Shown here: piece by piece, positions 13,490 to 14,017 of the stretch | Position numbering within the stretch: position 1 is the stretch's first letter | Layout of the letters: the number at the start of each line of letters is the position of its first letter | Origin: the human T2T-CHM13v2.0 reference genome, Homo sapiens | Reading direction: 5' to 3' | Length of the DNA stretch: 64,000 bases | Assembly (NCBI GenBank): GCA_009914755.4 | Contig: CP086569.2 | Coordinates: 608,001-672,000 of the forward strand | Notes under the pieces: generated by a model | The model's input: only the letters and a program-made list of their open reading frames with translations | What the model was told of the DNA's origin: nothing | The model's database searches: none | Translations under genes and position numbers: made by a program

Positions 13490-14017
13490 CAGGGCATGGT
13501 GGTGAGTGTCTATGGTTCCAGCTATAAGGAAAGTTGAGGTGGGAGGATCTCTTGAGCCCAGGAGTTTGAGACCAGCCTAGACAACATAGCAAGACCCCAT
13601 CGCTATAAAAAAAATTACCCAGGCATGGTGGCATGCACTTGTAGTCCCAGCTACTCAGGCAGTTAAGGCGGGAGGATTGCTTTAGCCCAGGAGTTCCAGA
13701 CAAGCCTGGGAAACATCACAAGACCTCATGTCTATAAAAAAATTTTAAAAATTATCCAGGCATGGTAGCACAAACCTGTAGTCCCAGCTACTCAGGCAGT
13801 TAAGGCAGGAGGATTGCTTTAGCCCAGGAGTTCCAGACAAGCCTGGGAAACATCACAAGACCTAATGTCTATAAAAAAATTTTAAAAATTATCCAGGCAT
13901 GGTAGCACAAACCTGTAGTTCCAGCTGCTCAGGCAGTTAAGGCAGAAAAAATGCTTGAGCCTTGGAGTGTGAGAGCAGCCTGGAAAACATAGCAAGATCC
14001 CATGTCTATAATTTTTT
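13490..14017 (+). repeat. Tandemly amplified Alu-derived segment (partial Alu then 3 x ~137 bp right-arm units)
   Basis: Unit attatccaggcatggtagcacaaacctgtagtcccagctactcaggcagttaaggcaggaggattgctttagcccaggagttccagacaagcctgggaaacatcacaagacctaatgtctataaaaaaattttaaaa repeats at ~13605, ~13742, ~13879. Confidence 0.85.

What the first reader, a model, noticed from the sequence alone, without database searches (positions are those of the whole stretch)
13490..14017. Recurrent 100-350-bp tandem duplications inside Alus at five independent sites: signature of local template-switching instability
Five sites show the same behaviour:
- (1) 13490-14017: a 137-bp Alu right-arm unit x3.
- (2) 31650-32310: an Alu right monomer x3 separated by (TTA)n.
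- (3) 37164-37723: a 121-bp left-monomer unit x3.
- (4) 40388-41150: an Alu plus 60-bp flank unit x~2.3.
- (5) 57485-57910: a 148-bp unit x2 inside an AluJ-like element.
Five independent monomer-level amplifications in 64 kb is far more than expected. Most Alus genome-wide are simple dimers. This suggests a regional propensity for replication slippage, fork-stalling/template-switching or unequal sister exchange. That fits with the abundant non-B-forming tracts.
Basis: seen in the sequence. Interest (0 to 1): 0.5.

Follow-up and report, generated by a model that had tools for sequence, protein, structure and literature searches.

The report
Tandem duplications inside Alus, repeat-rich region
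Five Alu elements in this primate window have had 135-354-bp pieces tandemly duplicated after they inserted, which is a known by-product of Alu's two-monomer homology and A-rich tracts; it is several-fold more frequent here than in a control sample, in a region that is about ten times richer in tandem repeats of all kinds.

Summary
All five sites are real post-insertion tandem duplications, but several unit descriptions were wrong.
- S1 (13482-14011): hybrid monomers (right-monomer 5' half fused to left-monomer 3' half), 3-4 copies, not 'right arm'.
- S3: an L-H-H-R tetramer with a 135-bp unit, not 121 bp.
- S5: an L-H-R trimer with a 141-bp unit.
- S2: a full Alu plus two extra right monomers, each preceded by a (TAA)n tract.
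- S4: a 354-bp 'Alu + flank' duplication with a hybrid middle Alu. It is not monomer-level.

Junctions at S1, S3 and S5 lie in the register where the left and right monomers are homologous (offset about 134 bp). Homology-guided unequal exchange or slippage therefore suffices.

I ran the same pipeline on about 500 kb of stray human DNA from public contigs. Clear intra-Alu duplications were 4/48 Alus in the window against 1-3/214 outside (Fisher p = 0.004-0.02; 0/88 on long contigs, p = 0.014). Tandem-repeat coverage is 26% against 2-3%.

A regional propensity is therefore plausibly real but modest. It is known biology: Alu-derived tandem repeats, three-monomer chimeric Alus and VNTR-dense domains are all published. 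A specific template-switching mechanism or a non-B-DNA cause is not shown. Low interest.

The parts
13482..14011 (+). S1: four tandem hybrid Alu monomers (A 13482-13611, B 13612-13751, C 13752-13888, D 13889-14011). Each is the right-monomer 5' half fused to the left-monomer 3' half plus a private linker, inside an old AluJ-like element.
   Evidence: TRF gives period 137, 2.9-3.5 copies. The jumping alignment gives cons 129-~190 then ~50-122, repeated. B-C are 94% and C-D 84% identical, against 72-77% to the consensus. There are 22 shared non-CpG private states between B and C.
14012..14213 (-). 5'-truncated AluY with its T-run, inserted into the linker between S1 unit D and the element's true right monomer. 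This is a later interruption, not part of the duplication.
   Evidence: AluY cons 120-281 at 92%. The sequence on the two sides reconstitutes the same private linker seen between B/C and C/D.
14214..14367 (+). The true right monomer of the S1 element (cons 129-278). Its tail has grown into (AGAA)n at 14368-14562.
   Evidence: It shares the private 'CAGTT(A/G)AGGCAG' and 'GGCATGCAC' states with the 5' halves of units B, C and D. Tail array.
31649..32309 (-). S2: a full AluS (32309-32029), then (TAA)n + right monomer (32016-31850), then (TAA)n + right monomer (31844-31678), then A29.
   Evidence: The jumping alignment gives [1-281][117-282][117-282]. TRF gives period 172 x 2.8. The three right monomers share private blocks in a mosaic pattern. 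R2/R3 share 6 non-CpG and 6 CpG derived states.
37172..37723 (-). S3: an AluS tetramer, L (37723-37589), H (37588-37454), H (37453-37319), R (37318-37172). H is the right-monomer first ~33 nt fused to the rest of the left monomer plus linker.
   Evidence: The jumping alignment gives [1-151][21-152][21-282]. U2-U3 are 98.5% identical. The hybrid 5' ends are identical to R's private 'AGCCGTGCGTGGTGGCGGGTGCCTGTCATCCCAG'. The crossover lies within a 15-bp block identical in L and R. TRF gives period 135 x 3.2 at 95%.
40372..41162 (-). S4: a 353-354-bp tandem duplication. Order: [Alu 3' fragment a0 41162-41102 + flank F0 41094-41036], [hybrid full Alu 41035-40756 + flank F1 40749-40683], [full Alu 40682-40401 + poly-A].
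   Evidence: the repeat finder reports a 156-nt block at 91%, an exact 25-nt non-Alu flank repeat, and spacing of 353-358 bp. The middle Alu shares private 5' states with the downstream Alu (C3A, G11C, G12A, A27C). Its 3' end matches the upstream fragment ('CCTGGATGAC...TGCCTC'). Identity between the two full Alus drops to 0.72 over the last 47 columns. F0-F1 are 92.6% identical.
57474..57907 (-). S5: an AluJ-like trimer L-H-R. A 141-bp unit (cons 75-206) is duplicated (57846-57706 and 57705-57565).
   Evidence: TRF gives period 141 x 2.0 at 96%. The copies are 96.5% identical to each other against 84% to the consensus, with many private states. The jumps 200/206 -> 75 are in the L/R register.
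11898..12326 (-). Look-alike that is not counted: a left monomer (cons 1-133) abutting a full Alu (5-282).
   Evidence: The first monomer is AluSx-type (CACCTGAAG) and the second is AluSc/Y-type (CAC--AAGG). Only 2 non-CpG states are shared, and copy-copy identity is no higher than identity to the consensus. The same structure occurs in the outside sample with 0 shared states.
39845..40235 (+). Ambiguous extra site: Alu [1-199] + 12 bp + [97-282]. It is either an old in-register duplication or a deletion between two tandem Alus.
   Evidence: Only 1 non-CpG and 1 CpG shared derived state.
61828..62886 (.). Context: a non-Alu VNTR, 339 bp x 3.1 at 95% identity. It is one of four non-Alu large-unit arrays; the others are 3579-4762, 8872-9836 and 15079-16214.
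   Evidence: TRF. Self-BLAST with Alus masked.

Best explanation
These are post-insertion tandem duplications seeded by homology that the Alu itself carries.

Shown:
- The extra units share private mutations with their neighbours in the same element, so they arose locally after insertion.
- At S1, S3 and S5 each extra unit is a hybrid whose 5' part comes from the element's right monomer and whose 3' part comes from its left monomer. The junction lies in the register where the two monomers are homologous (offset about 134 bp).
- At S2 the unit runs from the A-rich linker to the A-rich tail.
- At S4 the middle Alu is a hybrid between a full Alu and an upstream Alu 3' fragment, and the 60-bp spacer is duplicated with it.

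Inferred:
- The first step was out-of-register pairing of these internal homologies. It was resolved either by unequal sister-chromatid or homologue exchange, or by slippage/template switching on the homologous register.
- Once two units existed, arrays grew and were partly homogenised by further unequal exchange or conversion. This would explain the mosaic sharing of private blocks in S1 and S2, and the 3-4 units in S1 and S3.
- Unit divergences run from about 1.5% (S3) to about 16% (S1, S2). The events would then be spread over tens of millions of years rather than forming one burst.
- The local excess reflects a region-wide tendency to create and expand tandem repeats. The same window is 26% tandem repeat, so the Alus act as passive reporters.
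For: - Structure: searches give the consensus-coordinate parses, with all back-jumps of 125-135 bp in register.
- Hybrid nature and private mutations.
- Control showing that ordinary head-to-tail Alu pairs in the same window do not share private states: (820 pairs, mean 0.21 shared rare states).
- Enrichment: (4/48 vs 1-3/214, p = 0.004-0.023; vs 0/88 on contigs of at least 6 kb, p = 0.014).
- Regional tandem-repeat load: (26.4% vs 2.2-2.7%).
- Non-Alu VNTRs with units of similar size, one of them at 95% identity.
- Alu tails expanded to 170-500 bp.
- Independence of the sites.
- Literature: out-of-register left/right-monomer recombination giving three-monomer chimeric Alus (PMC9675761); Alu-derived tandem repeats genome-wide (PMC3389668); regionally heterogeneous VNTR density (PMC7608644).
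Against: - The outside sample is small (214 Alus). Much of it comes from short-read contigs, which tend to collapse or break at young tandem repeats, so it may underestimate the true rate.
- The outside sample is human, while the species of the window is unknown.
- The window was picked because of this pattern, so the p-values are optimistic.
- A published survey reported no obvious genomic hotspots of TE-derived tandem repeats (PMC3389668).
- Sequence alone cannot separate recombination from replication-based mechanisms.
- At S5 the homology preserved at the junction today is only a few bases.
Confidence: 0.8

Rival explanations
1. Chance clustering. The duplications are real, but five of them in this window only reflects the very high Alu count (about 48 complete Alus, 27% of the bases) and post hoc selection of the window. 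There is no special regional instability.
For: - The structural extra-monomer signature is not rare outside: 4/214 in register and 9/214 with any back-jump.
- The pooled test for any internal back-jump is not significant (p = 0.09).
- The window was flagged because of the pattern.
- PMC3389668 saw no genomic hotspots.
Against: - Restricted to duplications supported by shared private mutations, the contrast is 4/48 vs 1-3/214 (p = 0.004-0.023) and 4/48 vs 0/88 on long contigs (p = 0.014).
- The independent 10-fold excess of non-Alu tandem repeats in the same window is hard to ascribe to chance.
Confidence: 0.2
2. Replication-based template switching (FoSTeS/MMBIR), triggered by fork stalling at the abundant non-B-forming tracts, is the specific cause.
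For: - Long polypurine/polypyrimidine, AT, GT and GATA tracts are abundant.
- Duplicated Alus lie somewhat nearer to microsatellites than other Alus do (median 458 vs 1219 bp, p = 0.06).
- Junction identities are short (15 bp at S3, a few bp at S5), within the microhomology range.
Against: - There are no templated insertions, inversions or complex junctions.
- Every junction is in a homologous register, which simple unequal exchange or slippage also predicts.
- The proximity test is not significant, and S4 lies 2.3 kb from any array.
- With 26% tandem-repeat coverage, proximity is expected anyway.
Confidence: 0.2
3. The arrays are not duplications. They are separate Alu or monomer insertions that landed next to or inside each other in A-rich targets.
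For: - This is the correct explanation for five of six head-to-tail full-Alu pairs in the window.
- It probably holds for 11898-12326.
- It holds for most 'left monomer + full Alu' cases in the outside sample, which share 0 private states.
Against: - At all five sites the units share many private non-CpG mutations and are closer to each other than to any consensus.
- The hybrid units carry the private states of the flanking left and right monomers.
- At S4 a non-Alu flank is duplicated as well.
Confidence: 0.03
4. Multimeric source Alus (trimers or tetramers) retrotransposed into these sites as ready-made arrays.
For: None directly. Target-site duplications could not be read with confidence at these old elements.
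Against: - Each site has a different breakpoint, unit and subfamily.
- Unit pairs within one array differ widely in age. For example, S3 U1-U2 are 90% identical and U2-U3 98.5%; S1 B-C are 94% and C-D 84%. That implies stepwise local growth.
- No similar arrays appeared among 214 outside Alus.
Confidence: 0.03

Closest known systems
Alu-derived minisatellites / TE-derived tandem repeats (Jurka & Gentles 2006, cited from memory and via PMC3389668; Ahmed & Liang 2012, PMC3389668)
   Same: Pieces of an Alu repeated head-to-tail in situ, usually 2-3 copies, expanding slowly after insertion, with units most similar to each other. S3 and S5 meet that survey's criteria (unit at least 20 bp, at least 2 copies, GC at least 40%, at least 95% identity).
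   Different: That survey found such repeats at 0.18-0.40% of Alu loci and saw no genomic hotspots. Here 2 of 48 Alus meet its strict criteria, and 4 of 48 show older or younger duplications. S1, S2 and S4 are too diverged to be in that catalogue.
Three-monomer chimeric Alus from recombination between different monomers (Balachandran et al. 2022, PMC9675761)
   Same: Breakpoints lie in homologous regions of the left and right monomers, giving a ~450-bp Alu with three monomers. This is exactly the S5 architecture and the first step of S1 and S3.
   Different: The published cases are polymorphic rearrangements between two separate Alus that delete or duplicate the DNA between them. Here the exchange is within one element (or its sister copy) and has been iterated to 4-6 monomers.
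Alu/Alu-mediated rearrangements producing tandem duplications (e.g. PMC6071635; MYB duplication, PMC2150982)
   Same: S4: two same-orientation Alu sequences pair out of register, producing a hybrid Alu at the junction and duplicating the intervening DNA.
   Different: S4 is tiny (354 bp). One partner is only a ~60-bp Alu 3' fragment, and the event is ancient (copies about 85-92% identical).
Generation of Alu monomers by exchange between the central A-rich linker and the 3' A-tail (Kojima 2011, known from memory; cited in PMC13041450)
   Same: S2 uses the same pair of A-rich tracts as the misalignment substrate.
   Different: Kojima described the loss product (single monomers). S2 is the reciprocal gain product (extra right monomers).
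VNTR-dense chromosomal domains such as human subtelomeres (Linthorst et al. 2020, PMC7608644)
   Same: A several-fold local excess of tandem repeats with long units, ascribed to elevated recombination and unequal exchange.
   Different: The chromosomal position of this window is unknown. No telomere-like repeats were found. Its arrays are mostly AT/purine-rich microsatellites and moderate-GC units, not the >60% GC VNTRs emphasised there.

Membership tests
Dimeric Alu SINE | Left and right 7SL-derived monomers matching the Alu consensus, joined by an A-rich linker; the right monomer carries the 31-bp insertion | tested here: met
   All five sites align to AluS or AluJ consensus positions 1-282 at 75-94%. 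The consensus sequences were written from memory and are validated by about 70 hits at 85-93%.
Dimeric Alu SINE | 3' poly-A tail and flanking target-site duplications enclosing the whole array | tested here: inconclusive
   Tails are present (S2 A29, S3 A8, S4 A-rich). Target-site duplications could not be read with confidence at these old elements.
Post-insertion tandem duplication (as opposed to adjacent insertions) | Copies share private non-consensus, non-CpG mutations and are closer to each other than to the consensus | tested here: met
   (S1 22, S3 4-5, S2 2-6 shared non-CpG states). (S5 96.5% vs 84%). (S4 9 shared states plus a duplicated flank). Negative control. The feature is not met for 11898-12326.
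Out-of-register left/right-monomer exchange product (three-monomer chimeric Alu, PMC9675761) | The junction lies at homologous positions of different monomers (offset about 134 bp), and the extra unit is a right-5'/left-3' hybrid | tested here: met
   S1, S3 and S5. Not applicable to S2 (linker/tail) or S4 (Alu fragment/Alu).
TE-derived tandem repeat, as defined by Ahmed & Liang 2012 | Unit at least 20 bp, at least 2 copies, GC at least 40%, at least 95% similarity among units | tested here: met
   Met by S3 (135 bp x 3.2, 95%) and S5 (141 bp x 2.0, 96%). Not met by S1 (84-89%), S2 (87%) or S4 (TRF reported no array there; repeat blocks 83-91% identical).
FoSTeS/MMBIR template-switch rearrangement | Microhomology-only junctions, often with templated insertions, inversions or multiple switches | tested here: inconclusive
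   Junction identity is 15 bp at S3 and a few bp at S5. There are no insertions or inversions at any junction. The pattern is equally predicted by homologous unequal exchange.
VNTR (copy-number polymorphic tandem repeat) | Copy number varies between haplotypes | not testable with these tools
   Exact-word searches for the S3 flank in the metagenome and genome contig collections found nothing. No primate genome or pangenome resource is available.
Subtelomeric VNTR-rich domain | Location within about 5 Mb of a chromosome end; telomere-like repeats nearby | tested here: inconclusive
   Tandem-repeat density is about 10x the baseline. There is no TTAGGG array, and the position cannot be determined.

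The most novel reading that the evidence does not exclude
The window marks a long-lived local hotspot, active over tens of millions of years, that tandemly duplicates any 90-360-bp sequence: Alus, another interspersed repeat amplified twice, and unique DNA. If so, the per-Alu frequency of dup-supported extra monomers could serve as a genome-wide built-in dosimeter of local unequal-exchange or slippage rate, because Alus are near-identical substrates scattered everywhere.
Probability: 0.3. Interest if true: 0.35.

Novelty: already known. Interest (0 to 1): 0.15.

Why it matters
It matters little on its own. It is a clean, dissected example of how Alu's internal two-monomer homology and its A-rich tracts seed tandem repeats. 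It also shows that such events pile up in a region that is generally prone to tandem-repeat formation.

There are two practical lessons:
- A ~135-bp 'tandem repeat' call inside an Alu is often just the normal dimer, or two neighbouring elements. Shared private mutations are the test that separates real duplications from these.
- S3 (two units 98.5% identical) and the 339-bp array at 61828-62886 (95% identical) are good candidates for copy-number polymorphism, and could confound read mapping in this region.

Tried and rejected
- Rfam scan of the window: no family reached threshold.
- ORFs of at least 110 aa: only Alu, low-complexity and L1-like translations, and no gene to place the locus.
- Exact-word search for the S3 flank in metagenome and genome contigs, to find other haplotypes or species: no hits.
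- Telomere repeats: none.
- PRDM9-type motif CCNCCNTNNCCNC: 22 matches against 2.3 expected, but half come from one (CTCCTC)n array, so this is uninformative.
- Jurka & Gentles 2006 is not held in the library.
- A search for 'trimeric/tetrameric Alu' returned aluminium chemistry.
- PMC5402677 and PMC3592446 contain nothing on extra monomers.
- Head-to-tail full-Alu pairs (29944/30249, 47112/47442, 48598/48894, 50171/50475) were considered as further duplications and rejected. Their pairwise identity and shared rare states are typical of unrelated Alus. The pair 35770/36071 is borderline.
- 11898-12326 first looked like a sixth trimer and was then rejected as probably two different elements.
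- The L-word outside sample over-samples elements with two left monomers. I therefore added an R-word sample and a long-contig subset.

Full report
**What the window is.** It is primate DNA, 46% G+C. About 27% of its bases align to Alu, giving roughly 70 Alu pieces and 48 complete elements. I wrote the AluY, AluSx and AluJo consensus sequences from memory. They are validated by the window itself, where dozens of hits reach 85-93% identity over the full 282 bp. No Rfam family and no credible coding ORF is present. The species and chromosomal position are unknown.

**Why care is needed.** A normal Alu is already a dimer of two roughly 75%-identical monomers about 135 bp apart. TRF therefore reports ordinary Alus as ~2-copy, ~135-bp repeats, and head-to-tail Alu pairs as ~300-bp repeats. 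To separate real extra units from these, I did two things:
- I aligned each site to one Alu consensus with a dynamic programme that allows penalised jumps within the consensus.
- I asked whether the overlapping copies share private mutations, meaning non-consensus states, especially outside CpG.

**Site by site.**

*S1 (13482-14011, +).*
- It parses as cons [130-172][41-122][129-178][50-196][63-190][60-121].
- This corresponds to four units: A 13482-13611, B 13612-13751, C 13752-13888 and D 13889-14011. Each is built from the 5' half of a right monomer and the 3' half of a left monomer plus the linker.
- B-C are 94% identical and C-D 84%, whereas each is only 72-77% identical to the consensus. 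B and C share 22 private non-CpG states.
- The private motif CAGTT(A/G)AGGCAG and other states in the 5' halves recur in a genuine right monomer at 14214-14367.
- That right monomer is separated from D only by a later, 5'-truncated AluY insertion (14012-14213).
- The element is thus an old AluJ-like Alu with three or four extra hybrid monomers, not 'the right arm x3'.
- A candidate original left monomer lies at 13000-13115, before (AT)30 and another AluY. This assignment is inference.

*S2 (31649-32309, -).*
- It is a full AluS followed by two further right monomers (cons 117-282), each preceded by (TAA)n, and ending in A29.
- The three right monomers share different private blocks pairwise, in a mosaic. 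This points to repeated exchange or conversion.

*S3 (37172-37723, -).*
- It parses as [1-151][21-152][21-282].
- The two middle units begin with the right monomer's private 5' end (AGCCGTGCGTGGTGGCGGGTGCCTGTCATCCCAG) and continue as the left monomer.
- The switch lies within a 15-bp block (TGCCTGTCATCCCAG) that is identical in the element's left and right monomers.
- The two hybrids differ at 2 of 135 positions.

*S5 (57474-57907, -).*
- It is an AluJ-like L-H-R trimer. A 141-bp unit (cons 75-206) is present twice at 96.5% identity, against 84% to the consensus.

*S4 (40372-41162, -).*
- TRF did not report it, but the repeat finder shows a 353-354-bp register. It includes a 156-nt block at 91% and an exact 25-nt repeat of non-Alu flank.
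- The middle Alu shares private 5' states with the downstream Alu. It shares its private 3' end with an upstream 60-bp Alu fragment.
- The ~60-bp spacers are 92.6% identical.
- This is the expected product of out-of-register pairing between the fragment and the Alu's 3' end.

**Independence.** The sites differ in subfamily, orientation and breakpoint. With Alus and microsatellites masked, no dispersed duplication links them.

**Controls inside the window.**
- Among 820 pairs of full-length Alus the mean identity is 83.9%, and the mean number of shared rare derived states is 0.21.
- Five of the six head-to-tail pairs fall in the bulk of that distribution, so they are independent insertions. The pair 35770/36071 is borderline.
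- Two further candidates did not pass. At 11898-12326, a left monomer abuts a full Alu; the two are of different subfamily type and share only two non-CpG states. At 39845-40235, the structure [1-199]+12 bp+[97-282] shares only one non-CpG and one CpG state.

**Is five too many?** No primate genome is available in these tools, so I built a baseline from stray human DNA in public assemblies:
- 120 contigs were found with a left-monomer word in metagenome contigs.
- 118 contigs were found with a right-monomer word in bacterial genome assemblies.
- Together these total about 506 kb and 214 complete Alus.

With the identical pipeline, an in-register extra monomer occurs in 4/48 window Alus against 4/214 outside (p = 0.04), and against 0/116 in the unbiased right-word sample (p = 0.007). 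Any internal back-jump occurs in 5/48 against 9/214 (p = 0.09).

Most outside cases are 'left monomer + full Alu' with no shared private states, meaning neighbouring insertions. Only L084, a 100-bp triplication at 98% identity, clearly passes the duplication test, with L012 and L210 as possible further cases.

Clear intra-Alu duplications are therefore 4/48 (S1, S2, S3, S5) against 1-3/214 (p = 0.004-0.023), and against 0/88 on contigs of at least 6 kb (p = 0.014).

Caveats:
- The baseline is small.
- Much of it is short-read, which probably under-represents young tandem copies.
- It is human, while the window's species is unknown.
- The window was selected for this pattern.

A published survey with strict criteria found tandem repeats at 0.18-0.40% of Alu loci (PMC3389668). 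Two window sites (S3, S5) meet those criteria, against 0.1-0.2 expected.

**Regional context.**
- TRF union coverage is 26.4% of the window, against 2.2-2.7% of the baseline.
- There are four non-Alu large-unit arrays: 89 bp x 13, 356 bp x 2.8, 142/280 bp x 8/4, and 339 bp x 3.1 at 95% identity.
- Two of these share homology with a single-copy piece at 41978-42162 and so may derive from one interspersed-repeat family.
- Five Alu tails have grown into 170-500-bp GAAA-type arrays.
- Tetranucleotide arrays reach 2.6 kb.

The Alu duplications thus look like one facet of a general local tendency to make and expand tandem repeats. Regional heterogeneity of this kind is well documented, for example 7-fold (21-fold for GC-rich long units) in human subtelomeres (PMC7608644). 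I cannot place this window, and it has no telomere-like repeats.

**Mechanism.**
- Shown: local origin, hybrid units, and junctions in homologous register.
- Inferred: out-of-register pairing of the left and right monomers (S1, S3, S5), of the linker and tail A-tracts (S2), or of an Alu fragment and an Alu (S4). This would be resolved by unequal exchange or by slippage/template switching, followed by stepwise array growth. The wide range of unit divergence, about 1.5% to about 16%, would spread the events over a long time.
- Precedent: the same out-of-register monomer recombination has been observed as polymorphic events in humans, giving nine three-monomer chimeric Alus (PMC9675761).
- Nothing in the junctions requires fork-stalling/template-switching. 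There are no templated insertions or complex junctions.
- Proximity of the duplicated Alus to microsatellites is only suggestive (p = 0.06, n = 5).

**Verdict.** The phenomenon is already known, and interest is low.

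Noticed in passing
window 14368-14562, 20314-20814, 51631-52056, 49996-50168, 32903-33069: Five Alu poly-A tails have expanded into 170-500-bp GAAA/AAGA-type tetranucleotide arrays. This is far longer than ordinary Alu tails.
   Followed up: partly
window 26258-28863, 58365-59608, 17975-18714: Very long imperfect tetranucleotide arrays: (GATA)n 2.6 kb, (AGAT)n 1.2 kb and (ATCT)n 0.74 kb. 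Together with other arrays they bring tandem-repeat coverage to 26% of the window, against 2-3% in the control DNA.
   Followed up: partly
window 8872-9836, 61828-62886 and 41978-42162: Two non-Alu VNTRs (356 bp x 2.8 at 79%; 339 bp x 3.1 at 95%) both share homology with a single-copy piece at 41978-42162. They may be the same interspersed-repeat family amplified in tandem at two places. I did not identify the family.
   Followed up: partly
window 8289-8816: A 528-bp polypyrimidine (CTCCTC/CTTCTCCTC)n tract. It supplies 11 of the 22 matches to the recombination-hotspot motif CCNCCNTNNCCNC, so the apparent motif excess is a low-complexity effect.
   Followed up: yes
window 11898-12326: An AluSx-type left monomer directly abuts a full AluSc/Y-type Alu. 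It looks like a trimer but is probably two elements. The same arrangement is seen in about 2% of control Alus.
   Followed up: yes
window 39845-40235: Alu [cons 1-199] + 12 bp + [cons 97-282]. It is either an old in-register duplication or a deletion between two tandem Alus. Shared private states are too few to decide.
   Followed up: partly
window 35770-36353: A head-to-tail AluS pair that shares 3 rare derived states, the maximum among 820 pairs, with identity in the 97th percentile. This suggests a possible whole-Alu duplication or gene conversion.
   Followed up: partly
window 13186-13467 and 14012-14213: Two AluY elements, both on the minus strand, lie at the edges of S1. One is inserted into the A-rich linker between unit D and the right monomer. 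The other sits just upstream of unit A, next to a linker-like A-rich stretch and beside an (AT)30 tract.
   Followed up: partly
window 3579-4762 and 15079-16214: An 89-bp x 13 minisatellite (82% matches) and a CA-rich 142/280-bp higher-order array of about 1.1 kb. Neither was characterised further.
   Followed up: no
L084 47-525; L137-L198 (CBDIHZ01 contigs): One control contig carries a 100-bp (cons 157-257) triplication inside an Alu at 98% identity. Many assemblies labelled as bacteria, such as a Roseivirga MAG, contain 8-16-kb contigs carrying human-type Alus, which suggests host contamination.
   Followed up: partly
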